Made by a program: the position numbers and the translations under genes
The notes under the pieces: generated by a model
The model's database searches: none
What the model saw: only the letters and a program-made list of their open reading frames with translations
Told to the model about the DNA's origin: nothing
IMG/VR virus record: IMGVR_UViG_2802429247_000008
Location: 1-12,156 of that record
Source: a virus
Lineage: Duplodnaviria > Heunggongvirae > Uroviricota > Caudoviricetes
Length of the DNA: 12,156 bases
Direction: 5' to 3' (one strand)
Part shown: piece by piece, positions 1 through 12,156 of the stretch
Layout: each line of letters begins with the position of its first letter
Numbering within the stretch: position 1 is the first letter of the stretch

Positions 1-531
1 TGAGGTGAGCATATCACCTCTGTTCAGGTGGCCAAATTCAGTGTGCCACTTCAGATTGAACGCAGCAGCAAGACGGCTGGCGGTATAGTTAATCCCCTCG
101 TTGCGTGCTTCCGCACGTACTTCAGCCAGGAAAGCATCGGTGGCTGGGGTTTGCGGCATCCTTCCGTCTATTGCGCAGATATACGCATCAGATAGTTCAT
201 CCTGCTCGCCATCAAACACGTAGCAACTCTGTACGATAAATTTATTCAGCCCCGCATTCTCCGCCGCAAGCGCAGCAAGATTAGTCTCCAGCTCTGCAAT
301 GCGTTTGCTTTGGGCTTCCCGTTCATCCAGCAGTGCCAGCACGGTAGCCGGATTGGCTGCTGCTATGAATCGCTTATTGGCGCGATTATCTGGTCCTGAG
401 CATGATGCTATGTAGTAATTTGCGTTCAGTCCGGCATCAGCAATTACCCCATAGTAATCATCAGAACACCATTCGCCAGGGGTTGCATTTTCTGCCGCCA
501 TTCGCAGTGCCTGGTAATTAATGTTGCTCAC
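1..531 (-). CDS. Phage protein, tentatively ead/Ea22-like; first 177 codons only, gene continues past the window start
   Basis: Minus-strand frame is open from 531 down to position 1. GTG at 529-531 is preceded by AGGAGG (revcomp of 538-543) with a 6-nt spacer; an in-frame ATG at 499-501 is an alternative start. Product begins VSNINYQALRMAAENATPGEW and has a coiled-coil-like stretch (DEREAQSKRIAELETNLAALAAENAGL). Family assignment is from memory and unverified. Confidence 0.55.
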   Translation of the reverse strand, partial: MSNINYQALRMAAENATPGEWCSDDYYGVIADAGLNANYYIASCSGPDNRANKRFIAAANPATVLALLDEREAQSKRIAELETNLAALAAENAGLNKFIVQSCYVFDGEQDELSDAYICAIDGRMPQTPATDAFLAEVRAEARNEGINYTASRLAAAFNLKWHTEFGHLNRGDMLTS

Positions 532-823
532 TGGTTGCCTCCTGAAAAATAACTGCATGCCCCAGCTTCTCCGCCAGTGCCAGTTCTGCCTTAGCGCCTG
601 CTGACCGCTGCCAGCCTTTCAGCATGTAAATCGCATCCACACAACGAATCATTGCCATGCAAATATCCATGTAGTGTGGCTGTGTCAGTCCGTCCGGAAG
701 TACTGCCGGACTTAAGACGGTATGCCCTTCCCGTTTCAGTTCCTCTTCCGCCTTGTGGAACGCCTCACGGTTGAAATTTTTATACCCGGTCATCGGACCA
801 GCGATATAAACCCTCACCCTCAC
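518..823 (-). CDS. DUF4406-family protein (nucleoside 2-deoxyribosyltransferase-like fold)
   Basis: 101-aa ORF. N-terminal YIAGPMTG motif followed by EGHTVLSP and a C-terminal LKGWQRSAGAKAELALA segment, the pattern I associate with DUF4406/Rcl-like proteins of lambdoid prophages. GTG start at 821-823 with AGGAGG 7 nt upstream; overlaps the stop of the upstream gene (GTGA). Confidence 0.78.
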   Translation of the reverse strand: MRVRVYIAGPMTGYKNFNREAFHKAEEELKREGHTVLSPAVLPDGLTQPHYMDICMAMIRCVDAIYMLKGWQRSAGAKAELALAEKLGHAVIFQEATSEQH

Positions 824-1236
824 GCCATCACCTCCTGAAAATTACCCTGATAAAACGCCAGCACACGCTGCATAACCTTGCTTTTCCGGCACTCGCGACA
901 GATTATGTTCTGACGTCTGTCGTAGCGGCGTATCTCTCCATCTGGTAATGAATAAATCAGGTCAGGATCGCTCTTTTTCTTCACCGCCGCTTTCGACATC
1001 TTTTCGATGGCTTTTATCCAGTCCTTACGCGCCTGCGCTGAAGGGAATATTCCATACCCTGAACCATATACAACACCACTGGCTACCAGCTCTTTCGTCA
1101 GAACTTCTATCAGATGTCTCGTCGCCCCAATTTCATTTTCCAGTTGTTTACGCGTTTTCCGACCATCTCTGCGTACCAGTTCCACAATGCGCGCCTTCAC
1201 TTCTTCCCGCTGTTCGGAAGTAAAAACTTTTGCCAC
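820..1236 (-). CDS. Hypothetical phage protein, 138 aa, possible winged-helix N-terminus
   Basis: Clean 138-aa ORF with GTG start at 1234-1236 and AGGAGG 4 nt upstream (revcomp of 1241-1246). Its stop overlaps the start of the DUF4406 gene. I recognise no family; the basic N-terminal third and a single CRECR motif are the only features. Confidence 0.7.
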   Translation of the reverse strand: MAKVFTSEQREEVKARIVELVRRDGRKTRKQLENEIGATRHLIEVLTKELVASGVVYGSGYGIFPSAQARKDWIKAIEKMSKAAVKKKSDPDLIYSLPDGEIRRYDRRQNIICRECRKSKVMQRVLAFYQGNFQEVMA

Positions 1237-1276: not shown

Positions 1277-2224
1277 TTACCCCCTGAAGCCCGGCGGAAT
1301 TTCGGTATCCGGTTCAGAAATGTGATTCACGCAACGCTGTACAGGCGAACGCCCCAGACGAATAACCAGCTCATCCCATTTTTCGCGAAGCTTTGACGGG
1401 CTCATGACGTTTTTTACCCAGAATGGATCCCGCTGTACCCGACCAAACATTTCGCAAATTTGTCTGTGAGTTCTGCCATCCAGCATCCGCATTGTGCGCA
1501 CATCATTGGCCCATGCAGTCCAGTTGGGTTCTTTCGGTCGCATGATTTCGCCATCATCGCTGGCAGCCTGCTCGTAAAGACTCACGATTCGTCCCCAGAT
1601 CCACTGCGCACACGCTAAATCTTCCTGGCTACCCCACTGGCGTTTTTTCGCACTGAACACAACCGCGTCAGGGTGTCGGGTTAAAAAATCCTGTTCAGCC
1701 GTCTGCGAGTCCGGTTGCGAAGCTTCCGGACGAAAAGATCTTTTATCTGACGGATCAGGTTTTAATACTGACGGATCGGGGCCAACCATCGCCCCCCTAT
1801 CCGGCTGTTTTTTATCAATGGTTGATCCATCAAAATTTGAGGGGTCAACCGTTGAGGGGGCAATATTTGACGGGTCATTTTTTGCCTGGCTAATTTTTCT
1901 TTTCGGTTTATATGCCTCACGCGCCGCCGCTGCTGCTGCTTCTAGTTTTTCCACATTAAGACGGTAGATATTGCTTACATTACGCCCACCGACCTTACGT
2001 TCCTCCTTCGTCAGCCAGCCGTTCTTTTCCAGTTCCGCTATCGCAGCTTTAACCGTTGATTCACTCTTTGCCCCAATCTGACGACGAATGGTCTCCACTG
2101 CAGGCCATGACACACCTTCGTCATTGCTGTAATCTGCAAGGCGAGCCATTACTGCCACCCTGGATAAGATCATGCCGGTGAAGGCGCACCCTTCCCAGAC
2201 AAGACCATGAAGCTTGCTGCTCAT
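1277..2224 (-). CDS. Phage replication initiator (HTH N-terminal domain, low-complexity linker, DnaT-like C-terminal region)
   Basis: 315-aa ORF with ATG at 2222-2224 and GGAG 7 nt upstream. N-terminus (GMILSRVAVMARLADYSNDEGVSWPAVETIRRQIGAKSESTVKAAIAELEKNGWL) resembles HTH replication/replisome-organiser proteins. An Ala-run and Pro/Ser/Asp-rich linker is encoded by the iteron-like DNA repeats. Position after the cro-like and ydaT genes matches an O-like role. Confidence 0.8.
   Translation of the reverse strand: MSSKLHGLVWEGCAFTGMILSRVAVMARLADYSNDEGVSWPAVETIRRQIGAKSESTVKAAIAELEKNGWLTKEERKVGGRNVSNIYRLNVEKLEAAAAAAREAYKPKRKISQAKNDPSNIAPSTVDPSNFDGSTIDKKQPDRGAMVGPDPSVLKPDPSDKRSFRPEASQPDSQTAEQDFLTRHPDAVVFSAKKRQWGSQEDLACAQWIWGRIVSLYEQAASDDGEIMRPKEPNWTAWANDVRTMRMLDGRTHRQICEMFGRVQRDPFWVKNVMSPSKLREKWDELVIRLGRSPVQRCVNHISEPDTEIPPGFRG
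1757..1886. repeat. Iteron-like repeats inside the replication gene (candidate origin of replication)
   Basis: Five direct copies of a 10-bp motif: TGACGGATCA 1757-1766, TGACGGATCG 1778-1787, TGAGGGGTCA 1847-1856, TGAGGGGGCA 1862-1871, TGACGGGTCA 1877-1886, at spacings of 21, 69, 15 and 15 bp. One inverted copy (TGATCCATCA, 1832-1841). An AT-rich stretch follows at 1887-1920. The layout is analogous to lambda ori inside gene O. Confidence 0.55.
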
Positions 2225-2247
2225 AAAAAACTCCGAACACCGTGCTT

Positions 2248-2673
2248 TTAGTGCATCACCAGGGCATTTCCCGCCGGACCACCACGATTCATCTGATTGA
2301 AACCAGCGATCGCCACTGCGACAAAATCATCAGCGTCTCTCACCAGTCGTTCCCGCGTCTCCACCAGCTCCCGAAAATAGGCTGAACTGTGGCTGCGCAT
2401 TCGGGCCACCAGCAGAGGTGGCATTGCTTTTTCGATCGCTGGTAACAACGCCTGAATTTTTTTAACCGCATCAGGGGTGTCTTTCTCCACCCAGCGGAAA
2501 ATCTTCTGAGTATTGCGAGCCAGGGCTTCTGGGTGTGAATCGTCGTACAGTTCCGGAAACGTCATACCCAGTTCAAAATAAGCCCGGGTTATTTCAGCTG
2601 CCGGAACTTTTTCTCCGTCCGGATGCGCCCAGGCATTCATCGCCATGCGGATGTGCTCATGCTTGATTTTCAT
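2248..2673 (-). CDS. ydaT: YdaT-family protein (CII-like regulator, historically annotated as a toxin)
   Basis: 141-aa ORF starting MKIKHEHI, directly downstream of and overlapping (ATGA at 2670-2673) the cro-like gene. Size, N-terminus and position match Rac YdaT. Confidence 0.72.
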   Translation of the reverse strand: MKIKHEHIRMAMNAWAHPDGEKVPAAEITRAYFELGMTFPELYDDSHPEALARNTQKIFRWVEKDTPDAVKKIQALLPAIEKAMPPLLVARMRSHSSAYFRELVETRERLVRDADDFVAVAIAGFNQMNRGGPAGNALVMH

Positions 2674-2897
2674 GAATCACTCTTCCTTTCGCTCTGAGTG
2701 GTATCCTTCTTTTTGTAAAGCTCTGGGTTCAAAGATAATTTTCCCTTGGAGTATGCAGCAGCTTCCGCAGCTCTCCCTTTCGGAACTATTTCACCGGGGC
2801 GCTTACGCCACATGTAAATAGCTTCGCGGGTTATCCCATAAAAATCAGCGACCCTCTGAACAGAGCCAAAAAACTGAACAAGTTCATCAACTCGCAT
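2670..2897 (-). CDS. Cro-like HTH regulator (YdaS family)
   Basis: 75-aa ORF transcribed divergently from the repressor. HTH-like segment VADFYGITREAIYMWRKRPGEIVP. ATG at 2895-2897 with AGGAGG 6 nt upstream (revcomp of 2904-2909). Confidence 0.7.
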   Translation of the reverse strand: MRVDELVQFFGSVQRVADFYGITREAIYMWRKRPGEIVPKGRAAEAAAYSKGKLSLNPELYKKKDTTQSERKSDS

Positions 2898-2993
2898 TTC
2901 ACCCTCCTAAAATCTAAGTATTTTTAGATTACAGGATAATTTTTTTTAGGTCAATGCGATCTAAAATAATTTATATTCAACTCGCGGGAGAAA
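2898..2993. promoter_or_regulatory. Divergent promoter/operator region between the cro-like and repressor genes (OR-like)
   Basis: 20-bp near-palindrome AATCTAAGTATTTTTAGATT at 2911-2930 and a further ATCTAAAAT half-site at 2959-2967. Candidate minus-strand promoter: -35 TTGACC (revcomp of 2949-2954), 17-bp spacer, -10 TAATCT (revcomp of 2926-2931) overlapping the palindrome. Candidate plus-strand -10 TATATT at 2972-2977 for the repressor. Confidence 0.55.
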
Positions 2994-3641
2994 ATGATGG
3001 AAAGCCTTGGCATCAGGCTTAAGAAACTCAGAAAAGATAAGGGACTCACCCAAGTAGAACTGGGTAAGCTTTCAGGCGTGACTGGGGTTACTATAGGGTA
3101 CTGGGAGAAAGATCTAAACGAACCCGGCAGCAAAGCTCTAAGTAAGTTAGCCCAAGCATTAGGAACTACTGAGTCCTATCTCCTGTATGGAGTATCGTCT
3201 CCTGAACTATCTTTTGTGCAGAGCAATCCAGGCACCAAGATCCCCTACTTTTCGTGGGGTGACGCGATTTCTTTCCTAATCTTAGAAGGAGAGAAAACAA
3301 TGGGAAATGTCGATAGGATCACCACATTCTTTGATGTAGTGGAAGGTGATTTTGCCGTTTCAATGCCTGATGACACTATGCATAACCCCTCAGGGTCGCC
3401 AAGTATCCCAGTTGGTGCCACTGTGATCCTAAGACCAGGAGAAAGTTATAAAAATGGCAGTATCGTCGCTGTAATAGTTCCAGATCCTCTTACAAATGAA
3501 CCGTCTATGACTATAAAAAAATTAGTTATTGATGGAAAACTTGTGTATTTAAGCCCTCTCAATCCGCGCTATCAATCATCCTTGCTTACGCCAGAGTGTA
3601 AAATTGTTGCCGTAGCAAAAGGTGTACAGTTCAACCTATAA
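2994..3641 (+). CDS. cI/LexA-like prophage repressor (N-terminal XRE HTH, C-terminal S24 peptidase domain)
   Basis: 215 aa. HTH at LTQVELGKLSGVTGVTIGYWEKDLNEP. C-terminal VEGDFAVSMPDD (Ser of the catalytic dyad) and MTIKKLVIDGKLVYLSPLNPRY (Lys of the dyad), closely resembling lambda cI [22 protein letters not shown]. Two tandem ATGs at 2994 and 2997. Confidence 0.85.
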   Translation: MMESLGIRLKKLRKDKGLTQVELGKLSGVTGVTIGYWEKDLNEPGSKALSKLAQALGTTESYLLYGVSSPELSFVQSNPGTKIPYFSWGDAISFLILEGEKTMGNVDRITTFFDVVEGDFAVSMPDDTMHNPSGSPSIPVGATVILRPGESYKNGSIVAVIVPDPLTNEPSMTIKKLVIDGKLVYLSPLNPRYQSSLLTPECKIVAVAKGVQFNL

Positions 3642-3663
3642 CCCTGCCATGTTCTTGAACTTA

Positions 3664-3690
3664 AGGTCGGTTATGCCGACCTTTTTTTTA
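3664..3690 (+). terminator. Rho-independent terminator downstream of the repressor gene
   Basis: Stem GGTCGG (3665-3670) and CCGACC (3676-3681) around a 5-nt loop, followed immediately by an 8-T run (3682-3689). Confidence 0.7.
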
Positions 3691-3708
3691 AATTAATTTA
3701 GATTCCTC

Positions 3709-3737
3709 TTGACTATAAAACTAAATACTTTTAGATT
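3709..3737 (+). promoter_or_regulatory. pL-like promoter with overlapping operator-like site (OL-like)
   Basis: -35 TTGACT (3709-3714), 17-bp spacer, -10 TAGATT (3732-3737). The 20-mer AAACTAAATACTTTTAGATT (3718-3737) matches the OR palindrome at 17 of 20 positions. An extra TTAGATT at 3698-3704. Confidence 0.45.
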
Positions 3738-3908
3738 TATTGCATGCCAACCCATCCCGTCCCCACAGAATGCAGGGCAATACTTCGAGTTACCAGGCAG
3801 TGGTCAGGGGTTAAGTAGCCAGCCCGAGGCGTATGAACATGACGGCGGGATTCAAATTTTGCAGTGCAGCAGTTAGTTCCGCCACCCGGCGTTAAGGGGA
3901 GAGATAAG

Positions 3909-4043
3909 ATGGTGCATTACGAAGTAGTTCAGTATTTGATGGATTGTTGCGGTATCACTTACAACCAGGCTGTGCAGGCTTTACGCAGCAACGACTGGGA
4001 TCTCTGGCAGGCAGAAGTCGCTATACGTAGCAACAAGATGTGA
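3909..4043 (+). CDS. ydaG: YdaG-like small protein (44 aa)
   Basis: ATG at 3909 preceded by GGGGAGAG. Product MVHYEVVQYLMDCCGITYNQAVQALRSNDWDLWQAEVAIRSNKM. Size and position (between repressor and ydaF/sieB) match Rac ydaG. Below the length cutoff of the supplied ORF track. Confidence 0.62.
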   Translation: MVHYEVVQYLMDCCGITYNQAVQALRSNDWDLWQAEVAIRSNKM

Positions 4044-4053
4044 GATTCGCAAA

Positions 4054-4209
4054 ATGCAAAAAATCGACCTCGGCAACAACGAATCCCTGGTGTGCGGCGT
4101 GTTCCCCAACCAGGATGGAACGTTCACTGCCATGACGTATACCAAAAGCAAAACATTTAAAACCGAAACTGGTGCGCGCCGATGGTTGGAGAAGCACACA
4201 GTAAGCTAA
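4054..4209 (+). CDS. ydaF: YdaF-like small protein (DUF1391, 51 aa)
   Basis: ATG at 4054. Product MQKIDLGNNESLVCGVFPNQDGTFTAMTYTKSKTFKTETGARRWLEKHTVS. Matches my recollection of Rac YdaF in size and position. Its stop overlaps the sieB stop convergently. Confidence 0.65.
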   Translation: MQKIDLGNNESLVCGVFPNQDGTFTAMTYTKSKTFKTETGARRWLEKHTVS

Positions 4210-4694
4210 CGATTAAAACGTCTACTCCTGCTGTTCCAGAATAACTTCATAAAATGGGAGTATTTTTCGGTGACGAGATAATAAGAACAGTTTGCGCTAT
4301 CACTCTGATGTTGAATGATGCCCTTCCGTTCTAATTTTTTCATAACCGGGTTACGGCAAGGAGAAGTGATAATAAGATTTCCTGTTTTAAGGAAATCTTT
4401 AAATACAGCGATTTCTTTCTCAGATAAACGAAGCAATACTCGTTGCTCTGGTAGTAATGAATAATGCTTTTGAATATGTGCTCGCAATCTTGAGAAGGAA
4501 ATGGCGACCACGAAAGAAAAGGCAAAAACGATAATCTGAAAGAGCCAAGATATTTCAGTATAAGCATTGAATGCGACAGTAAACTCTTTCGGTATCAGCC
4601 AGAGAGTGAGACCAAAAATGATAATCGTATACATAAGTCTTTCGAGTGGCTCGTTAGCAAAAAGTTTCAACAATGGAGTAAATACATCCAACAT
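4206..4694 (-). CDS. sieB: Superinfection exclusion protein B
   Basis: 162-aa product from ATG at 4692-4694 (MLDVFTPLLKLFANEPLERLMYTIIIFGLTLWLIP...), with hydrophobic membrane segments. The supplied ORF extends 41 codons further upstream to 4817, but that extension looks non-coding. Confidence 0.8.
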   Translation of the reverse strand: MLDVFTPLLKLFANEPLERLMYTIIIFGLTLWLIPKEFTVAFNAYTEISWLFQIIVFAFSFVVAISFSRLRAHIQKHYSLLPEQRVLLRLSEKEIAVFKDFLKTGNLIITSPCRNPVMKKLERKGIIQHQSDSANCSYYLVTEKYSHFMKLFWNSRSRRFNR

Positions 4695-4912
4695 ATCAAT
4701 AACTCTCAACTGTAAGGGTATTGAAATGTTAACACAAGCTCTCGCTGTAGGGGTATAGCCGAGACCACCGAAGCCCGGAGGTGGTGAAATAAAACCGGGC
4801 ACAACACGAAGGCGCATTTCCGATATCCATAAAGAGTCGGTCTTGTCTGTTAAATTTAAATGGTGGGAGTGCGCCTCCGGTTGTAAATAACGACATTGCT
4901 GTGTGTAGTCCT

Positions 4913-4960
4913 GGCGGCATCAGTTTTTTTCTTGAAGTTCGGCTGATGTCCGCCCTTTTT
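4913..4960 (+). terminator. Terminator-like hairpin plus T-run in the sieB/kilR divergent intergenic region
   Basis: Stem GGCGGCATCAG (4913-4923) pairs with CTGATG(T)CCGCC (4943-4954) with one bulge, followed by CTTTTT (4955-4960). The 19-nt loop is large for an intrinsic terminator, so confidence is low. Confidence 0.3.
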
Positions 4961-5135
4961 AAAGTGAATTTTGTGATGCGGTGAATGCGGCTAAGCGCAC
5001 GTGGCACAGTTAAAAGTCATGTTAGTCCTTATTGGTTTGGGTGGGAAAGCCGACTGTAATTGTTAACTGGTTGCAGTCACCTGGAGGCACCAGGCACCGC
5101 ATCAACAAAGTTCATTTGTAAAAATGGAGATAATT

Positions 5136-5357
5136 ATGATTGCACATCACTTCGGAACTGATGAAATACCACGTCAGTGTGTGACTCCTGGCGATTATGT
5201 TCTTCATGAAGGCCGGACATATATTGCCTCGGCAAACAATATTAAAAAGCGAAAACTATATATTCGTAACCTGACCACAAAAACATGCATTACTGACTGC
5301 ATGATTAAAGTTTTCCTCGGTCGTGATGGTTTACCTGTAAAGGCGGAATCATGGTGA
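5136..5357 (+). CDS. kilR: KilR-like killing / cell-division inhibitor protein (73 aa)
   Basis: ATG at 5136 with GGAG 6 nt upstream; the supplied ORF starts 4 codons earlier at 5124 with no SD. Product [35 protein letters not shown].... Position between sieB and ydaE matches Rac kilR. Sequence identity is from memory only. Confidence 0.6.
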
Positions 5358-5527
5358 TGACTAAGAAAATAAAATGTGCTTACCACCTTTGCAATAAAGG
5401 GGTTGAAGAAAGCAAAAGCATTAAAAGACCACTTCATTTCATGCGTGGAGTTATACCAACGACGGAAATGAAAAAATATTGTAGTGAAATCTGTGCCGAA
5501 AAAGACAAGATGGCACACGAACTTTAA
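5357..5527 (+). CDS. ydaE: YdaE-like small Cys-rich (zinc-binding) protein, 56 aa
   Basis: ATG at 5357 overlaps the kilR stop (ATGA). Product [56 protein letters not shown] carries C-x4-C ... C-x3-C. Below the ORF-track length cutoff. Confidence 0.62.
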   Translation: MTKKIKCAYHLCNKGVEESKSIKRPLHFMRGVIPTTEMKKYCSEICAEKDKMAHEL

Positions 5528-5601
5528 TTAACTGACTATGCGAAACTGAATTCATGCCAGCAATGGCAGGGATTCGCTCAACCTTAATTAAGGAGAAAAA
5601 C

Positions 5602-5877
5602 ATGATTACTAATTATGAAACCACTATTGTAACTACTGATGACATTGTTCACGAGGTTAATCTGGAAGGAAAGCGTATTGGCTACGTGATTAAAACAGAA
5701 AATAAAGAAACCCCATTCACTGTAGTTGATATCGACGGTCCATCAGGCAACGTTAAAACACTTCACGAAGGTGTCAAAAAAATGAGCCTGGTGCATATCG
5801 GAAAGAATCTGCCCACAGAAAAAAAAGCCGAATTTCTGGCAACTCTGATTGCAATGAAATTAAAAGGTGAAATCTGA
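5602..5877 (+). CDS. racC: RacC-like protein (91 aa)
   Basis: ATG at 5602 with AGGAG 6 nt upstream; the supplied ORF starts at 5554 with no SD. Product MITNYETTIVTTDDIVHEVNLEGKRIGYVIKTENKETPF.... Lies immediately upstream of recE, as in Rac. Confidence 0.6.
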   Translation: MITNYETTIVTTDDIVHEVNLEGKRIGYVIKTENKETPFTVVDIDGPSGNVKTLHEGVKKMSLVHIGKNLPTEKKAEFLATLIAMKLKGEI

Positions 5878-5882
5878 AAGAA

Positions 5883-5907
5883 ATAGCCTGCGTATGGCGC
5901 AGGCTAT
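5883..5907. repeat. Perfect 10-bp inverted repeat between racC and recE
   Basis: ATAGCCTGCG (5883-5892) and CGCAGGCTAT (5898-5907) around a 5-nt loop. No downstream T-run on the plus strand, so not a canonical intrinsic terminator. Confidence 0.5.
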
Positions 5908-5978
5908 GAACAGTGTGTATCCGGCAAGATCATTCACTGAACAAAACGAATTTTAATCTGAGTTGAGGTTAAAAAACA

Positions 5979-8900
5979 ATGAGCACAAAACCACTCTTCC
6001 TGTTACGGAAAGCGAAAAAATCATCCGGTGAACCTGACGTCGTCCTGTGGGCAAGCGACGATTTTGAATCGACCTGTGCCACTCTGGACTACCTGATCGT
6101 TAAGTCAGGTAAAAAACTGAGCAGCTATTTTAAAGCTGTTGCCACGAATTTTCCTGTCGTTAATGACCTGCCCCCTGAAGGTGAGATCGATTTTACCTGG
6201 AGTGAACGCTATCAACTCAGCAAAGACTCCATGACCTGGGAACTAAAATCGGGAGCAGCGCCAGACGACGTTCACCATCAGGAGAATGCTCAGGAAACCG
6301 AAGAACTGACGGGAGGGCAGGAAGAAAACACACTGGCAGACGCTCACGGGGATTGCCAGGATTGCGAAGTTTCTGTATCTACTTTGCGGTTCACACAGCG
6401 TCTTCTGCACATTTTTACCTATGCGGCCGGGGATCGGAAATACCTGCATCATGCCACCCGAGAACAACGCGAACACATTACTGCTCTTGAGATGGATCAG
6501 GAAAACAGCTATGTCCAGAATCTGCTGTTGGCCATACGCGGCATGGCAGAACCGACAACTCTGGATAATGCCGCCCTGCTCCGCCTGACTGATGCAATTA
6601 AGGGGGTTTTCTCTATCACGAAAAAACATCAGCCCTATGAATTTAAGAATTTCATTTCAGCCTGGCTGGATACCGAACACATTGATCGCGGTCTTCTGAC
6701 AAAAGAATGGCGAAAAGGGAATCGTGTTTCACGCATCACTCGCACGGCTTCCGGTGCTAATGCTGGCGGCGGGAACCTCACCGATCGCGGCGAAGGTTTC
6801 GTCCACGATCTGACGTCACTGGCGCGCGATGTAGCCACTGGCGTACTGGCCCGTTCAATGGACGTGGACATCTATAACCTTCATCCGGCACACGCTAAAC
6901 GCATTGAGGAAATTATCGCTGAAAATAAACCGCCCTTTTCTGTTTTCCGCGACAAATTCATCACCATGCCTGGCGGGCTGGATTATTCACGCGCCATCGT
7001 GGTTGCGTCCGTGAAAGAAGCACCAATTGGGATCGAGGTCATCCCCGCGCACGTCACTGAATATCTGAACAAAGTACTGACTGAAACCGATCATGCCAAC
7101 CCTGATCCGGAAATCGTGGATATTGCCTGCGGTCGCTCCTCTGCCCCGATGCCGCAGCGTGTAACAGAAGAAGGAAAACAGGATGATGAAGAAAAACCGC
7201 AACCATCTGAAACAACGGCAGATGAACAGGGAGAGGCTGAAACAATGGAACCGGACGCAACTGAACATCATCAGGACACGCAGCCGCTGGATGCTCAGTC
7301 ACAGGTAAATTCTGTTGATGCGAAATATCAGGAACTGCGGGCAGAACTCCATGAAGCCCGGAAAAACATTCCATCAAAAAATCCTGTCGATGCCGATAAA
7401 TTGCTTGCTGCATCACGTGGTGAATTTGTTGACGGAATTAGCGACCCGAACGATCCGAAATGGGTTAAGGGGATCCAGACTCGCGATTCTGTGTACCAGA
7501 ACCAGCCAGAAACGGAAAAAACCAGCCCGGATGTGAAACAACCTGAGGCAGTAGTGCAACAGGAACCGGAAATAGTCTGCAATGCCTGCGGTCAGACTGG
7601 CGGAGATAACTGCCCTGACTGTGGGGCGGTGACGGGCGACGCAACATACCAGGAAACATTCGATGAAGAGAATCAGGTTGAAGCTAAGGAAAAAGATCCG
7701 GTGGAAATGGAAGGCGCTGAACATCCGCACAATGAGAATGCTGGCAGCGATCCGCATCGTGATTGCAGTGATGAAACTGGTGAAGCGTCAGCTCCTGTAG
7801 CAACTGAAATCATGTGGCCGTCATATTTCGAGCCTGGCCGCTATGAAAACCTCCCGAACGAGGTTTATCACTCCGCCAACGGAATAAGCAGCACGATGCT
7901 GAAGGATGCCCGTATCAGCCTGATGTATTACCACGGACGGCACATTGCCGGAACTATTCCGAACGAGGAAAGTGATGCACTGCTGCGTGGGCGGATCATT
8001 CACAGCTATGTTCTGGAAACGGATAAATTCGCTGATGAATATGCCATTCCGGTACCGGTTCCTGAATATGTGGTTACTACTTCTAGCGAACTGATCGCCA
8101 TCATTAAAAAACACAATGCCAGTCTGCCAGCACTGATGACACCAGAGCAGATGAAAGAGTGGATCGAAAGCTACAACAGCACTCTTATACAGCCACTGTC
8201 TGTAAGTGCCGGGGCCGAAGAAACAGGCATCCTTTACGGTTCGCTTCCGGTGGAATTTCGGCGTATTCCTGAGGGGGAAAAACACACAGCATCAGCAATG
8301 AAAGCCTGTATTAAAGAATACAACGCAAGCCTCCCTCCTCTGTTGAAAACCAGTGGAGCACGGGAGCAGCTTCTGGATCAAATTGAAACTGTAGACCCAG
8401 AACTGGCAAAAAAAGAACGTGCTAAATCTTTGCCTTACAACATCAGTGGCACAAAAGAGCAATTAACCGAAATCGCACGGAAAATTCGCCCGGAACTGGT
8501 GACACTGGAGGACTGGCAAAAACGCCAGCAAGAAGAAAATGCCGGGAAAACGTTTATCAGTCCGGAGATGTATGAACAGGCAAAAAATATTCACGCGGCA
8601 CTGCAAAACAATACCGATGCAGCAAGGCTACTCAACCACCCGGATCGCAAATCTGAAATCAGCTATTTCGGGTTTGATGAAGAAACCGGGCTGGAAATCA
8701 GGGTCCGTCCTGATATCGAAATCCGGCTGCCATACGAAAGCATTTGCGCTGACGTGAAGTCAGTCAGCCTCGGTTATGTGCGACAGGAACGACTTAAAGA
8801 TCGCCTGCACCGTGAAATTATTGAGCGTGATTATCACCTCAGCGCCGCAATGTATTGCGATGTGGCAAACCTGGACAAATTTTTCTGGATCTTCGTCAAC

Positions 8901-9101
8901 AAAGATGCTGGCTATCACTGGGTGGCAGTCGTGGAAGCCTCGCAGGAACTCCTGGAACTTGGTCGACAGGAATATCGCCGGACGCTACGCCAGATAAACG
9001 AAGCCCTGGAGACAAACAACTGGCCAGCACCGATTACCGAAAGTTATACCGACGAATTAAACGACTTTGATCTTCGTCGTCTTGAAGCACTGAGCATCTG
9101 A
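5979..9101 (+). CDS. recE: Exodeoxyribonuclease VIII (RecE-family 5'-3' dsDNA exonuclease), 1040 aa
   Basis: N-terminus [65 protein letters not shown] is the RecE start as I recall it. Long acidic linker. C-terminal PD-(D/E)xK-type motifs ([22 protein letters not shown]). SD GAGG upstream of ATG 5979. Confidence 0.88.
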
Positions 9102-9112
9102 GGAAGGACACA

Positions 9113-10165
9113 ATGAACGAATTAACTCAACAAGAAAATATTAACTCTAATGTTGCGGTTTTCAGCCCTCAGTCCCTGGCTGCAATTCAGACATTTTCCC
9201 AGGTAATGGCTTCCGGCATGGCTACTGTACCGGAACACCTCCGGGGAAATCCATCAGACTGCATGGCCATCACCATGCAGGCGATGCAGTGGCAAATGAA
9301 CCCTTACGCAGTAGCTCAGAAAACTTTCGTTGTGAATGGTGTGCTCGGATATGAAGCGCAACTGGTTAATGCCGTAATCAGTACTCGTGGGCCGCTAACC
9401 GGGCGTATTGAATATGACTGGTTCGGGCCGTGGGAAAAAATTATCGGGAAATTTGAAATCAGGAAGAGCGACAAAGGGAAAGAATATCGTGTACCTGGCT
9501 GGAAGCTGGCCGATGAAAACGGGATCGGTGTTCGTGTCCAGGCAACACTACGCGGCGAAAGTAAACCACGCGTACTGGAATTACTTCTGGCGCAGGCCAG
9601 AACACGTAACTCAACGCTATGGGCCGACGATCCTCGCCAGCAGCTTGCCTATCTAGCGCTGAAACGCTGGGCGCGCCTTTATTGCCCCGAAGTGATTCTT
9701 GGAGTGTACACCAGGGACGAACTGGACGAGCCACAGGAAAAAATCATTAATCCGGTTCAGGAACATAAAAACACTTCCGCTTGCCGCGCGGAACGTGAAA
9801 CAACAATTATTGAGCAGGATGCCGGGGAAAACTGGATCGATGCTTTCCGTGAACGTATTGAGCAGGCACAAAGCACCGGGGAAACAACAGCACTTCGCCA
9901 GGAAGTGGAAGATCATAAAAATACACTTGGCGCTCTCTATACGGAACTTAAAGGAAAAGTGGTTCAGCGTCATCACCGTCTCAATGCTATTGCCCGTATC
10001 GAGAAGATGATAAATGACCTACCTTCTTCAGGTGATCCAGAAGCAGAACAAAAATTTACTGCTCTGGAAAATACGCTGAATGCTGCCCGGCCACATCTGG
10101 GTGAATTATATGAGGCGTATAAAACGACACTGACAGATATGAAACCAGAATATATCGGCTCCTGA
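9113..10165 (+). CDS. Single-strand annealing protein of the RecT/Red-beta superfamily (Red-beta-like), 350 aa
   Basis: Immediately downstream of recE (11-nt gap, SD GAGGAAGGA). The segment WADDPRQQLAYLALKRWARLYCPEVILGVYTRDELDE resembles lambda Red-beta WQSHPKRMLRHKAMIQCARLAFGFAGIYDKDEAE. It does not resemble K-12 RecT as I remember it. Confidence 0.7.
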   Translation: MNELTQQENINSNVAVFSPQSLAAIQTFSQVMASGMATVPEHLRGNPSDCMAITMQAMQWQMNPYAVAQKTFVVNGVLGYEAQLVNAVISTRGPLTGRIEYDWFGPWEKIIGKFEIRKSDKGKEYRVPGWKLADENGIGVRVQATLRGESKPRVLELLLAQARTRNSTLWADDPRQQLAYLALKRWARLYCPEVILGVYTRDELDEPQEKIINPVQEHKNTSACRAERETTIIEQDAGENWIDAFRERIEQAQSTGETTALRQEVEDHKNTLGALYTELKGKVVQRHHRLNAIARIEKMINDLPSSGDPEAEQKFTALENTLNAARPHLGELYEAYKTTLTDMKPEYIGS

Positions 10166-10175
10166 TATTGACTTT

Positions 10176-10213
10176 GGCGGTGTAGCCTCACCGCCATCAC
10201 AAAATTTTATTTT
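10176..10213 (+). terminator. Hairpin with distal T-rich tract after the annealase gene (weak terminator or attenuator candidate)
   Basis: Stem GGCGGTG (10176-10182) and CACCGCC (10189-10195) around a 6-nt loop. The T-rich tract AAAATTTTATTTT starts 5 nt later, so it is not a textbook terminator. Confidence 0.3.
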
Positions 10214-10228
10214 ATGAGAGAAAAGACA

Positions 10229-10423
10229 ATGCGGTATGAAAAAGTCAAACCATGCCCTTTTTGTGGTTGTCCATCAGTAACGGTGAAAGCCATTTCAGGA
10301 TATTACCGCGCGAAGTGTAACGGATGCGAATCCCGAACCGGCTATGGTGGAAGTGAAAAAGAAGCACTCGAACGATGGAATAAACGAACCACTGGAAATA
10401 ATAATGGAGGTGTTCATGTATAA
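10229..10423 (+). CDS. ralR: Restriction alleviation protein (Lar/RalR family), 64 aa
   Basis: Product MRYEKVKPCPFCGCPSVTVKAISGYYRAKCNGCESRTGYGGSEKEALERWNKRT has the CPFCG ... CNGC zinc-ribbon typical of Lar. The supplied ORF starts 5 codons upstream at 10214; the ATG at 10229 is chosen by homology. Confidence 0.8.
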   Translation: MRYEKVKPCPFCGCPSVTVKAISGYYRAKCNGCESRTGYGGSEKEALERWNKRTTGNNNGGVHV

Positions 10424-10604
10424 AATTACCGCCACTATTGAAAAGGAAGGTGGCACTCCTACTAACTGGACAAGGTACTCAAAAACAAAATTAACCAAAT
10501 CAGAATGCGAAAAAATGCTCTCAGGTAAAAAAGAAGCAGGCGTTTCCAGAGAGCAGAAAGTAAAACTGATAAATTTTAATTGCGAGCAACTTCAGTCCTC
10601 GTGA
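10416..10604 (+). CDS. ydaC: YdaC-like protein (DUF1187), 62 aa
   Basis: ATG at 10416 with GGAGG 5 nt upstream; overlaps the ralR 3' end by 8 nt. Product MYKITATIEKEGGTPTNWTRYSKTKLTKSECEKMLSGKKEAGVSREQKVKLINFNCEQLQSS. The supplied ORF 10344-10604 carries an N-terminal extension I consider spurious. Confidence 0.62.
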   Translation: MYKITATIEKEGGTPTNWTRYSKTKLTKSECEKMLSGKKEAGVSREQKVKLINFNCEQLQSS

Positions 10605-10703
10605 ATTGCATTGTATTCAAATTAAAACTTCATAGCTGATTATTAATAATCAACATCGGGCGTCAATTTCAGTCTAACATTGGCGCCTGCCAGAGGTGAT
10701 GCG

Positions 10704-10919
10704 ATGGCACAAGTAATCTTTAATGAAGAGTGGATGGTTGAATACGGCCTGATGCTTCGCACTGGTCTGGGGGCCAGACAAATTGAAGCATACCGCCAGA
10801 ACTGTTGGGTGGAAGGCTTCCACTTCAAACGAGTATCTCCTTTAGGGAAGCCAGACAGTAAGCGAGGGATTATCTGGTACAACTATCCAAAGATAAATCA
10901 GTTTATCAAAGACTCATGA
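10704..10919 (+). CDS. xis: Excisionase-like protein (Rac YdaQ/XisR type), 71 aa
   Basis: ATG at 10704 with GAGGTG 4 nt upstream. Product [49 protein letters not shown].... Ends 1 nt before the integrase start. Confidence 0.72.
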
Positions 10920-10920
10920 T

Positions 10921-12156
10921 ATGTCTAAATTACCAACAGGTGTCGAGATTCGAGGTAAATACATTCGCATCTGGTTCATGTTTCGAGGAAAACGATGTCG
11001 GGAAACATTGAAAGGCTGGGAGGTTACTAACAGTAACATTAAAAAAGCCGGGAATTTAAGAGCGTTGATAGTTCATGAAATCAATTCCGGTGAATTTGAG
11101 TATTTAAGACGTTTCCCCCAGTCCAGCACTGGGGCAAAAATGGTGACAACGAGGGTCATAAAAACGTTCGGGGAGCTTTGTGATATCTGGACAAAAATTA
11201 AAGAGACAGAGTTAACAACAAACACAATGAAGAAAACGAAATCACAATTAAAAACACTCAGGATAATAATTTGTGAGAGTACCCCAATATCACATATTCG
11301 TTATAGCGATATCTTAAACTACCGGAATGAACTGCTGCATGGAGAAACGCTTTACCTGGATAATCCAAGATCCAACAAAAAAGGAAGAACCGTGCGCACA
11401 GTTGATAACTATATCGCCCTGCTCTGTTCGTTGTTACGTTTTGCGTATCAGTCGGGATTTATATCAACCAAACCATTTGAAGGAGTAAAAAAATTACAGC
11501 GAAACAGAATAAAGCCTGATCCGTTATCTAAAACAGAATTCAATGCATTAATGGAAAGTGAAAAAGGACAGAGCCAGAACTTGTGGAAATTTGCCGTTTA
11601 CTCCGGGCTTCGTCACGGGGAACTGGCTGCTCTGGCGTGGGAGGATGTGGATTTCGAGAAGGGAATTGTGAATGTCAGAAGAAACCTGACGATACTTGAT
11701 ATGTTCGGTCCCCCAAAAACAAATGCGGGGATTCGGACGGTAACACTACTGCGGCCTGCTATTGAAGCACTGAAGGAGCAATACAAACTAACCGGGCATC
11801 ATCGCAAAAGCGAAATCACTTTTTATCATCGGGAGTACGGCAGAACCGAAAAGCAAAAACTGCATTTTGTTTTCATGCCCAGGGTGTGTAACGGAAAACA
11901 GAAACCTTATTACTCGGTAAGCAGTCTGGGGGCGAGATGGAATGCAGCAGTAAAACGTGCTGGTATTCGCCGCCGTAATCCGTACCATACGCGGCATACT
12001 TTTGCCTGCTGGTTGTTGACGGCAGGAGCGAACCCGGCATTTATAGCCAGCCAGATGGGGCATGAAACTGCGCAGATGGTGTATGAAATTTACGGTATGT
12101 GGATTGATGACATGAACGACGAACAGGTAGCTATGTTGAATGCGCGGTTATCGTAG
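10921..12156 (+). CDS. intR: Tyrosine-family site-specific integrase (Rac IntR-like), 411 aa, complete
   Basis: C-terminal catalytic-domain motifs (LRHGELAALAWEDVDF; NPYHTRHTFACWLLTAGANPAFIASQMGHETAQMVYEIYGMW). ATG at 10921 sits 1 nt after the xis stop. The TAG stop is the final triplet of the window. Confidence 0.9.
   Translation: MSKLPTGVEIRGKYIRIWFMFRGKRCRETLKGWEVTNSNIKKAGNLRALIVHEINSGEFEYLRRFPQSSTGAKMVTTRVIKTFGELCDIWTKIKETELTTNTMKKTKSQLKTLRIIICESTPISHIRYSDILNYRNELLHGETLYLDNPRSNKKGRTVRTVDNYIALLCSLLRFAYQSGFISTKPFEGVKKLQRNRIKPDPLSKTEFNALMESEKGQSQNLWKFAVYSGLRHGELAALAWEDVDFEKGIVNVRRNLTILDMFGPPKTNAGIRTVTLLRPAIEALKEQYKLTGHHRKSEITFYHREYGRTEKQKLHFVFMPRVCNGKQKPYYSVSSLGARWNAAVKRAGIRRRNPYHTRHTFACWLLTAGANPAFIASQMGHETAQMVYEIYGMWIDDMNDEQVAMLNARLS

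What the first reader, a model, noticed from the sequence alone, without database searches (positions are those of the whole stretch)
2248..2897. Cro-like plus YdaT pair at the lytic promoter, once annotated as toxin-antitoxin
A YdaS-family HTH protein followed by an overlapping YdaT-family gene sits where lambda carries cro and cII. Rac YdaS and YdaT have been reinterpreted as Cro and CII analogues, and YdaT is toxic when overexpressed. Here they pair with a cI/S24-type repressor rather than RacR, so the immunity region is mosaic.
Basis: partly seen in the sequence, partly recalled or inferred. Interest (0 to 1): 0.35.

Follow-up and report, generated by a model that had tools for sequence, protein, structure and literature searches.

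The report
Known Cro and CII-like prophage switch genes
These two overlapping genes are the ordinary Cro-like and CII-like (YdaT) regulators of a Rac-type E. coli prophage, near-identical to proteins that already have crystal structures and mapped binding sites, so the finding is real but already explained.

Summary
The two minus-strand genes exist as described: a 75-aa HTH protein (2670-2897) and a 141-aa protein (2248-2673) that overlap by ATGA. They sit between a divergent cI-like repressor (2994-3641) and an O-like replication gene.

The 141-aa protein is a clear YdaT. It passes the Pfam YdaT threshold and is about 95% identical to PDB 3C4R. It is 85% identical to CP-933P YdaT (PDB 8BT1) and 31% to Rac YdaT.

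Its published operator, TTGATT-N6-AATCAA, sits with one mismatch on its own start codon (2663-2680). This matches CP-933P and Rac, where YdaT binding turns on a reverse, PRE-like promoter for the repressor.

The 75-aa protein is Cro-like but not YdaS-family. It passes Pfam P22_Cro, fails YdaS_toxin, and has no BLASTP match to Rac or CP-933P YdaS.

The mosaic claim holds. An immunity cassette (about 2296-3741, with its own OR and OL operators and PL) is set into a 94-97% Rac backbone.

The toxicity premise applies to Rac YdaT. The much closer CP-933P protein was reported non-toxic.

The same trio occurs in about 470 of 5,426 complete E. coli genomes and in sequenced phages annotated cro/cII. 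Verdict: already known, low interest.

Side notes: the repressor appears to lack the S24 catalytic Ser and the Ala-Gly site, and a second YdaT-box lies upstream of xisR.

The parts
2670..2897 (-). Cro-like HTH regulator, 75 aa (P22_Cro / DicC-like, not YdaS family). It is the first gene of the rightward (PR-type) operon.
   Evidence: ORF. Pfam P22_Cro 38.3 bits (cut-off 30.2) and YdaS_toxin 16.2 (cut-off 30). PHROG 409 and 35 are transcriptional regulators. Weak PDB match to 2HIN/6ON0, deposited as 'Repressor protein | Gp39'. 96% identical to the cro of an O157:H7 prophage and of phage vB_EcoM-606R7. SD GGAGG lies 5-9 nt upstream.
2248..2673 (-). YdaT, 141 aa: the CII-analogous tetrameric DNA-binding activator. 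Its start overlaps the cro stop (ATGA).
   Evidence: Pfam YdaT_toxin 39.1 bits (cut-off 21). PHROG 163 CII-like 1e-45. PDB 3C4R E=1e-89 and 8BT1 E=7e-81. 85% identical to CP-933P YdaT and 31% to Rac YdaT. DNA-contact residues E21, R53 and R60, and residues 50-61 of the recognition helix ALARNTQKIFRW, are identical to CP-933P.
2663..2680 (.). YdaT-box (OM equivalent), TTGATTTTCATGAATCAC. It is an inverted repeat spanning the cro stop and the ydaT start codon.
   Evidence: One mismatch to the footprinted TTGATT-N6-AATCAA. Only 0.07 such sites are expected in the window. It matches the CP-933P OM oligo. The core TTGATTTTCATGAATC is invariant in six diverged loci, including Rac K-12, and marks the homology breakpoint.
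2619..2644 (.). Equivalent of the weaker CP-933P YdaT site OL, inside the ydaT 5' coding region.
   Evidence: 25 of 26 bases match the published OL oligo CCGGATGCGCCCAGACATTCATCGCC. Binding here is inferred from that homology only.
2712..2739 (+). Candidate PRE-like reverse promoter inside cro (TTTGTA-16-GATAAT). Speculative.
   Evidence: Found only in a lenient scan, 8 of 12 matches. The standard scan finds no promoter in 2200-3100, as expected for an activator-dependent promoter. Its position is inferred from CP-933P PRE933P and Rac PracR4.
2912..2976 (.). OR region. Operators ATCTAA-N6-TTAGAT at 2912-2929 (perfect) and 2959-2976 (1 mismatch), plus a weak middle site at about 2934-2951. Putative PR (TTGACC 2954-2949, TAATCT 2931-2926, minus strand) and PRM (-10 TATATT 2972-2977).
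   Evidence: Four sites with 2 or fewer mismatches lie in the window, all in the immunity region, against 0.42 expected. The region is 96% conserved in two homologous loci. Promoter hexamers were read from the sequence and are inferred.
2994..3641 (+). cI-like repressor, 215 aa (214 aa from the second ATG at 2997). It has an HTH_3 N-domain and an S24-fold C-domain with Thr at the Ser-nucleophile position.
   Evidence: Pfam HTH_3 47.8 bits and Peptidase_S24 41.2 bits. PDB matches to the P22 C2 N-domain and the lambda CI C-domain. 100% identical to the phage vB_EcoM-606R7 repressor.
3663..3737 (+). Left edge of the immunity cassette: the cI terminator (3663-3683 plus T-run), OL operators (3686-3703 and 3719-3736), and PL (TTGACT-17-TAGATT, 3709-3737).
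   Evidence: Terminator and promoter scan. Operator matches. Rac K-12 homology begins at 3742, immediately after PL.

Best explanation
This is the rightward early regulatory pair of a Rac-type lambdoid prophage.

When the cI-like repressor leaves the OR operators, a PR-type promoter transcribes cro, then ydaT, then the O-like replication gene. The Cro-like protein is inferred to bind the same ATCTAA-N6-TTAGAT operators and shut off repressor synthesis from PRM.

YdaT is a tetramer of POU-like HTH domains held together by a C-terminal four-helix bundle. It binds the inverted repeat that spans its own start codon (2663-2680), plus a weaker flanking site. From there it activates an otherwise silent promoter that reads back through cro towards the repressor gene. 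This gives a burst of repressor to establish or re-establish lysogeny, as lambda CII does at PRE.

Shown here: the genes, their families, near-identity to structurally solved YdaT, the conserved operator, the operator set, PL, and the cassette boundaries.

Taken from published experiments on homologues: DNA binding, tetramerisation and promoter activation.

Inferred: the exact position of the reverse promoter, and Cro's operator preference.
For: - Gene order and overlap.
- Family matches.
- 3C4R and 8BT1 matches at E=1e-89 and 7e-81.
- Recognition helix and contact residues identical to CP-933P YdaT.
- YdaT-box at the cro/ydaT junction, with 0.07 expected by chance. It is identical in sequence context to the footprinted CP-933P OL-OM region and invariant across six diverged loci, including Rac.
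- Published activation of PRE933P by CP-933P YdaT, and 29-fold box-dependent activation of the reverse racR promoter by Rac YdaT, with both homologues cross-activating.
- Four matching repressor operators confined to OR and OL, and PL with a terminator.
- Sequenced phages with the same module annotate it as cro / activator cII.
Against: - No sigma-70 consensus promoter was found on the plus strand near the box, so the PRE equivalent is not located.
- The two experimental systems place the activated promoter differently. In CP-933P the start site is at the box. In Rac the promoter is about 190 bp away.
- The CP-933P OR flanking site is absent here because the cro allele differs.
- Nothing in this window was tested experimentally.
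- This prophage may be defective, so the circuit may not operate as a full lysis-lysogeny switch.
Confidence: 0.85

Rival explanations
1. The pair is a type II toxin-antitoxin module, with YdaT as toxin and the upstream HTH protein as antitoxin. This is what the Pfam names and the RefSeq 'toxin YdaT family protein' label imply.
For: Pfam names PF06254 'Bacterial toxin ydaT' and PF15943 'toxin YdaS'. The RefSeq product name is 'toxin YdaT family protein'. The two genes are small and overlap. Rac YdaT overexpression causes filamentation and death.
Against: - The TA call came from a prediction program and was not borne out experimentally.
- YdaT is a DNA-binding POU/HTH tetramer with a mapped operator.
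- CP-933P YdaT, 85% identical, showed no toxicity.
- The upstream protein here is not even in the YdaS family.
- There are no PADLOC hits.
- The position between the repressor and the replication gene is the cro-cII slot.
Confidence: 0.03
2. YdaT here acts mainly on the host, as Rac YdaT does. Rac YdaT activates rcsA and the Rcs regulon, which makes it toxic when expressed.
For: Rac YdaT binds and activates the host rcsA promoter and is toxic when expressed. The window prophage has a Rac backbone.
Against: The window protein is only 31% identical to Rac YdaT but 85% to CP-933P YdaT. CP-933P YdaT was shown not to activate rcsA and not to be toxic.
Confidence: 0.07
3. YdaT works chiefly as a repressor or roadblock at its own start codon. 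In this reading it damps ydaT and downstream replication-gene expression instead of activating repressor synthesis.
For: The box covers the ydaT ribosome-binding region and ATG. The structural paper calls YdaT a 'CII repressor' and places OM over or downstream of the PRE start.
Against: In Rac, ydaT reporter expression did not change with YdaT level or with box mutation, while the reverse promoter rose up to 29-fold. In CP-933P, YdaT switched on PRE933P.
Confidence: 0.1

Closest known systems
YdaT of cryptic prophage CP-933P / Sp12, E. coli O157:H7 (PDB 8BT1), and the unpublished structural-genomics entry 3C4R
   Same: 85% (CP-933P) and about 95% (3C4R) amino-acid identity over the full 141 residues. 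Residues 50-61 of the recognition helix, the alpha2-alpha3 loop, and E21/R53/R60 are identical. The OL-OM operator sequence sits at the same place on the start codon. The ATGA overlap with the upstream gene is the same. The downstream O-like gene is 90.6% identical.
   Different: In CP-933P the upstream partner is a true YdaS-family protein of 100 aa, and the repressor is PaaR2 with a paaA2-parE2 toxin-antitoxin pair behind it. Here the partner is a P22_Cro-type protein and the repressor is a 215-aa HTH plus S24-fold protein. The CP-933P OR flanking site is absent.
RacR-YdaS-YdaT immunity region of Rac, E. coli K-12
   Same: Same gene order and the same YdaT-box on the ydaT start codon. The surrounding prophage backbone is the same at 94-97% identity: ydaG, ydaF, sieB, kilR, recE 5' part, ralR/RalA, xisR, intR.
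   Different: YdaT is only 31% identical. Cro versus YdaS and cI versus RacR show no detectable similarity. No YdaT-box-like site (3 or fewer mismatches) lies in the cI-cro intergenic region here, whereas Rac YdaT also binds there. Rac YdaT is toxic and targets rcsA.
Lambda Cro / CII / PRE circuit
   Same: Position between cI and O, co-transcription from PR, a tetrameric HTH activator, and a binding site at the cro-cII junction that drives an antisense promoter for repressor establishment.
   Different: No sequence homology to lambda CII (no Phage_CII Pfam hit). YdaT recognises an inverted repeat with a 6-bp spacer, whereas lambda CII recognises TTGC-N6-TTGC direct repeats (my own knowledge). 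The Cro here is placed in the P22_Cro family, not the lambda Cro family.
Immunity modules of induced E. coli phages vB_EcoM-606R7 / vB_EcoS-689R5 and an O157:H7 tccP/espJ-carrying prophage
   Same: The same cI-cro-ydaT trio: repressor 100% / 96%, Cro 96% / 96%, YdaT 95% / 82% identical. The operators are the same. The phage records annotate the genes as cro and activator cII.
   Different: They sit in different prophage backbones, with different integrases, replication genes and left arms.

Membership tests
YdaT family (Pfam PF06254; CII-analogous prophage regulators) | Sequence match above the curated family threshold | tested here: met
   39.1 bits against a cut-off of 21. PHROG 163 gives 1e-45. 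Rac YdaT itself scores 44.7 bits.
YdaT family (Pfam PF06254; CII-analogous prophage regulators) | POU-like HTH domain with a long alpha2-alpha3 loop, recognition helix with Arg60, and a C-terminal helix for tetramerisation | tested here: met
   Full-length alignment to the crystal-structure sequences 3C4R and 8BT1 without gaps. E21, R53 and R60, and the loop GMTFPELYDDSHPE, are identical. No structure was predicted here. The conclusion rests on 85-95% identity.
YdaT family (Pfam PF06254; CII-analogous prophage regulators) | Cognate TTGATT-N6-AATCAA box overlapping its own start codon | tested here: met
   2663-2680, one mismatch, 0.07 expected by chance. The core is invariant across six loci.
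YdaT family (Pfam PF06254; CII-analogous prophage regulators) | Box-dependent activation of a reverse promoter for the repressor | not testable with these tools
   Published for the CP-933P and Rac homologues. It needs reporter assays here.
YdaS family (Pfam PF15943 / COG4197) | Sequence match above the curated family threshold | tested here: not met
   16.2 bits against a cut-off of 30. Rac YdaS scores 107.7 and CP-933P YdaS 46.5 on the same model. NCBIfam gives no YdaS hit.
YdaS family (Pfam PF15943 / COG4197) | Detectable pairwise similarity to characterised YdaS proteins | tested here: not met
   BLASTP finds no alignment to Rac YdaS or CP-933P YdaS. Those two align with each other at 39.7% identity.
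P22_Cro family (Pfam PF14549) | Sequence match above the curated threshold, small single-domain HTH, first gene of the operon divergent from the repressor | tested here: met
   38.3 bits against a cut-off of 30.2, covering residues 5-64. Weak matches to PDB 2HIN/6ON0 (E=3e-4), 5W8Y and 3BD1 'Cro protein'. Position.
Lambda CI / LexA-type self-cleaving S24 repressors | N-terminal HTH plus C-terminal Peptidase_S24 fold | tested here: met
   HTH_3 47.8 bits and Peptidase_S24 41.2 bits. Aligns to the lambda CI C-domain.
Lambda CI / LexA-type self-cleaving S24 repressors | Ser nucleophile (G-[DN]-S-M) and Lys general base | tested here: not met
   The Lys is present (TIKKL). The Ser position holds Thr (DDTM) in the ungapped alignment to lambda CI GNSM. 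67 of the 90 aligned sequences (88 relatives at 50% or less mutual identity, plus the window protein and lambda CI) have Ser there, and 7 have Thr.
Lambda CI / LexA-type self-cleaving S24 repressors | Ala-Gly (or Cys-Gly) cleavage site in the linker | tested here: not met
   The aligned position reads Ala-Ile. Among relatives, AG/CG is present in 40 of 66 with Ser and in 1 of 19 without Ser (Fisher p=1e-5; the sequences are not independent and the linker alignment is uncertain).
Type II toxin-antitoxin systems | A growth-arresting toxin neutralised by direct binding of the co-encoded antitoxin | not testable with these tools
   The literature on the closest homologue found no toxicity. YdaT is a DNA-binding regulator. 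No PADLOC hit.
Lambda CII family (Pfam Phage_CII) | Sequence homology to lambda CII | tested here: not met
   There is no Phage_CII hit at E<=0.01. YdaT_toxin is the only Pfam match. The relationship is one of function and position only.

The most novel reading that the evidence does not exclude
The near-perfect YdaT-box CTGATTATTAATAATCAA at 10636-10653 may be a genuine second YdaT target. It lies between the RalA sRNA start and the xisR-intR operon and is identical in Rac K-12. If real, it would give Rac-type prophages the missing PI-like arm of the CII-analogous circuit, that is, YdaT control of integration/excision or of the RalR/RalA module. The papers I read on YdaT binding sites do not mention it. 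In combination, the repressor of this immunity type may be a non-self-cleaving S24 derivative, so induction would need something other than RecA-stimulated autocleavage.
Probability: 0.2. Interest if true: 0.4.

Novelty: already known. Interest (0 to 1): 0.1.

Why it matters
It matters little beyond correct annotation. The module shows that the database labels 'toxin YdaT' and 'toxin YdaS' still mislead. It also shows that the YdaT gene travels with several unrelated Cro and repressor alleles, with the YdaT-box acting as the module boundary.

It is a clean example of lambdoid immunity-cassette exchange. OR, cI, OL and PL are swapped as one block into a Rac backbone.

The only points that could repay bench work are the two side observations. 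One is a possible YdaT site in front of xisR-intR in all Rac-type prophages. The other is a repressor subfamily that seems to have lost both the S24 nucleophile and the cleavage site.

Tried and rejected
- I looked for a consensus sigma-70 promoter for the PRE equivalent and for PR/PRM in 2200-3100. The standard scan found none. A lenient scan gave only 8-of-12 candidates, so I do not claim a PRE position.
- I tested whether the xisR-upstream box is conserved beyond its flanks. The region is 99% or more identical in 1,617 genomes, so conservation carries no information.
- I looked for an independent replicate in other YdaT phages. Phage Tritos has a perfect box only at ydaT and none upstream of xis. 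A Klebsiella phage with a 56%-identical YdaT has no box at all within 2 mismatches at the ydaT start. Phage 606R7 has none near int. The PI-like idea therefore stays unreplicated.
- I checked whether XisR or other published work explains that palindrome. The papers I read do not address it.
- I considered an OOP-like antisense RNA because of a plus-strand terminator-like hairpin at 2405-2422. There is no promoter and no Rfam hit, so I dropped it.
- I searched for the whole window in complete E. coli genomes. None holds 80% or more of it in one place, so I could not identify the source strain.
- My first blastn parsing mixed several loci in one file. I redid it.
- I did not predict structures, because crystal structures of 85-95% identical proteins exist.

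Full report
**What is there.** The window holds two intact minus-strand ORFs at exactly the reported coordinates: 2670-2897 (75 aa) and 2248-2673 (141 aa). [quoted passage not shown] Upstream and divergent lies a 215-aa ORF at 2994-3641. Downstream on the same strand is a 315-aa ORF at 1277-2224, which matches PHROG 391 'replication initiation O-like' at 4e-113. This is the lambda order cI / cro-cII-O.

**The 141-aa protein.** It passes the Pfam YdaT_toxin threshold (39.1 bits against 21) and matches PHROG 163 'CII-like transcriptional activator' at 1e-45.
- Against solved structures it aligns end to end with 3C4R (E=1e-89). By my count of that alignment there are seven differences in 141 positions.
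- It also aligns end to end with 8BT1, YdaT of prophage CP-933P (E=7e-81). BLASTP gives 85% identity to CP-933P YdaT, 95% to the phage vB_EcoM-606R7 protein and 31% to Rac K-12 YdaT.
- The structural paper (PMC9986795) describes a POU-like HTH domain with a long alpha2-alpha3 loop, a recognition helix at Ala50-Asp63, and a C-terminal helix that builds a tetramer.
- In the window protein the loop, residues 50-61 of the helix, and the highlighted residues E21, R53 and R60 are identical to CP-933P.

**Its operator.** CP-933P YdaT footprints a TTGATT-N6-AATCAA inverted repeat (OM) at the ydaS/ydaT junction, with weaker flanking sites OL and OR.
- The window carries TTGATTTTCATGAATCAC at 2663-2680, one mismatch from that consensus, spanning the cro stop and the ydaT ATG. 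Only two sites with one mismatch or fewer exist in the window, against 0.07 expected.
- The published OL and OM oligonucleotides (supplementary Table S5) match window 2619-2680 almost base for base.
- I aligned this junction from six loci: the window, phage 606R7, an O157:H7 tccP/espJ prophage, CP-933P, a Rac-like prophage of strain 135, and Rac K-12. The core TTGATTTTCATGAATC is invariant in all six, while everything on the cro side diverges completely.
- Half of the repeat is outside the ydaT coding sequence and lies in unrelated upstream genes. Its invariance therefore argues for selection on the site itself.

**Function from the literature.**
- In CP-933P, YdaT switched on an otherwise silent promoter, PRE933P, between ydaS and ydaT that reads towards the repressor. 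[quoted passage not shown]
- In Rac, YdaT binds the same box (ATGATTCATGAAAATCAA) and raises a reverse promoter inside ydaS up to 29-fold. This depends on the box, and the Rac and CP-933P proteins cross-activate.
- I therefore assign the same mechanism here.
- I could not locate the promoter. The standard scan finds none, and a lenient scan offers only TTTGTA-16-GATAAT at 2712-2739.

**The 75-aa protein.** It is Cro-like but the 'YdaS family' label fails.
- It passes Pfam P22_Cro (38.3 bits against 30.2) and falls well short of YdaS_toxin (16.2 against 30).
- Rac YdaS and CP-933P YdaS score 107.7 and 46.5 bits on the YdaS model.
- BLASTP finds no alignment between the window protein and either YdaS, although those two align with each other at 39.7% identity.
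- RefSeq calls its near-identical homologues 'Cro/CI family transcriptional regulator'.
- It is the positional and presumably functional equivalent of YdaS, from a sister HTH family.

**The repressor and its operators.** The 215-aa protein has HTH_3 and Peptidase_S24 domains and no similarity to RacR.
- A perfect palindrome ATCTAAGTATTTTTAGAT lies at 2912-2929.
- Related sites lie at 2959-2976, 3686-3703 and 3719-3736. That makes four sites with two mismatches or fewer against 0.42 expected, all within the immunity region.
- The last two flank a PL-type promoter, TTGACT-17-TAGATT at 3709-3737, which follows the cI terminator at 3663-3683.

**Mosaic structure.** blastn against fetched loci gives this map:

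| Window segment | Closest match | Identity |
|---|---|---|
| 3742-7799 and 10175-12156 (except a 403-bp gap at 6281-6683 inside recE) | Rac K-12 (ydaG, ydaF, sieB, kilR, recE 5' part, ralR/RalA, xisR, intR) | 94-97% |
| about 2296-3741 | phage 606R7 type | about 95% |
| 1279-2295 | CP-933P type (O-like protein 90.6% identical) | about 87% |

The immunity cassette is bounded on one side just after PL and on the other inside or next to ydaT.

It is not rare, however. The cro-ydaT-intergenic block is found at 80% coverage or more in 469 of 5,426 complete E. coli genomes, and some ydaT similarity in 2,868 of them. Other Rac-like prophages carry yet other Cro and repressor alleles next to ydaT. 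Only 16 sequenced phage records hold a YdaT homologue. The annotated ones label it variously: 'activator protein cII' or 'repressor CII' in five, and other names such as 'Rha family transcriptional regulator', 'ydaT' or 'hypothetical protein' in the rest.

**Toxicity.** For the far closer CP-933P protein, no toxic effect was detected, and it could not activate rcsA. I expect the proposed overexpression test to be negative.

**Side observation: the repressor's catalytic residues.** In the ungapped alignment to the lambda CI C-domain, the GNSM nucleophile aligns with DDTM, so Thr replaces Ser. The Lys is kept.
- I aligned 88 relatives at 50% or less mutual identity, taken from a full HMMER search, together with the window protein and lambda CI. 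Of these 90 sequences, 67 have Ser and 7 have Thr at that column. The window's Ala-Ile stands where most have Ala-Gly.
- An AG or CG site occurs in 40 of 66 Ser-bearing relatives but in only 1 of 19 without Ser.
- These sequences are not independent, and the linker alignment is uncertain.
- This suggests a non-self-cleaving subfamily. It needs a biochemical test.

**Side observation: a second YdaT-box.** CTGATTATTAATAATCAA at 10636-10653 lies between the RalA sRNA (10422-10600, minus strand, Rfam 215 bits) and the xisR start at 10704.
- It is identical in Rac K-12.
- The YdaT papers I read do not mention it.
- Local sequence conservation is uninformative.
- Other YdaT phages lack such a site near their integrases.
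- I rate a regulatory role at about 0.2.

**Verdict.** The feature is real, correctly placed and mostly correctly interpreted. It is a well-characterised module with solved structures and mapped operators for near-identical proteins. Novelty: already known. Interest: low.

Noticed in passing
window 2994-3641 (+): The cI-like repressor has Thr where lambda CI has the catalytic Ser149 (DDTM versus GNSM), and Ala-Ile where the Ala-Gly cleavage site aligns. The Lys is kept. Among diverse relatives, loss of Ser and loss of AG go together (40 of 66 versus 1 of 19). It may be a non-self-cleaving repressor.
   Followed up: partly
window 10636-10653: A second near-perfect YdaT-box, CTGATTATTAATAATCAA, lies about 36-53 nt upstream of the RalA sRNA 5' end (minus strand) and 51 nt upstream of the xisR ATG (plus strand). 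It overlaps consensus-like -10 hexamers on both strands. It is identical in Rac K-12 (L005 2504-2521). The YdaT binding-site papers I read do not mention it. Phage Tritos and phage 606R7 have no such site near their integrases.
   Followed up: partly
window 3663-3741: The left edge of the immunity cassette holds the cI terminator, two OL operators and a PL promoter (TTGACT-17-TAGATT). Homology to Rac K-12 starts at 3742, right after the -10 hexamer. This is a very clean module boundary.
   Followed up: yes
window 2248-2295 versus 2296-2680: ydaT is itself a patchwork. The last 16 or so codons, together with the O-like gene, follow the CP-933P lineage (85% versus 75% identity to 606R7). The body of the gene follows the phage 606R7 lineage (92-100% versus 58-90% in 2296-2535).
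   Followed up: yes
window 10422-10600 (-) and about 10224-10418 (+): A RalA antitoxin sRNA (Rfam RF02694, 215 bits) lies antisense to a RalR/Lar-family gene. This is the Rac type I toxin-antitoxin pair, and it is intact here.
   Followed up: partly
window 7800-10174: The 3' half of the 1040-aa recE-like gene and the 350-aa recT-like gene have no nucleotide match to Rac K-12 recE/recT, although the flanks are 94-97% identical. This is a second replaced module inside the Rac backbone.
   Followed up: no
whole window: No complete E. coli genome in the collection holds 80% or more of the window in one place (best 77% at 98.3%). Each module is common, but this particular combination was not found.
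   Followed up: partly
window 2405-2422 (+): A terminator-like hairpin (GCCACCAGCAGAGGTGGC followed by a T-run) lies on the strand antisense to ydaT, which recalls lambda oop. No promoter or Rfam match was found. It may simply reflect the PPLLVA coding sequence.
   Followed up: no
L009 (Klebsiella phage ST405-OXA48phi1.2) 5426-5851: A YdaT homologue, 56% identical and annotated 'repressor CII', has no TTGATT-N6-AATCAA box (2 or fewer mismatches) at its start codon. Box specificity may therefore differ in more distant family members.
   Followed up: no
window 518-1236 (-): Downstream of the O-like gene lie a DUF977 / 'Ren-like exclusion' protein (820-1236) and a DUF4406 nucleoside 2-deoxyribosyltransferase-like protein (518-823). 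No P/DnaC-type helicase loader lies between the O-like gene and them.
   Followed up: no
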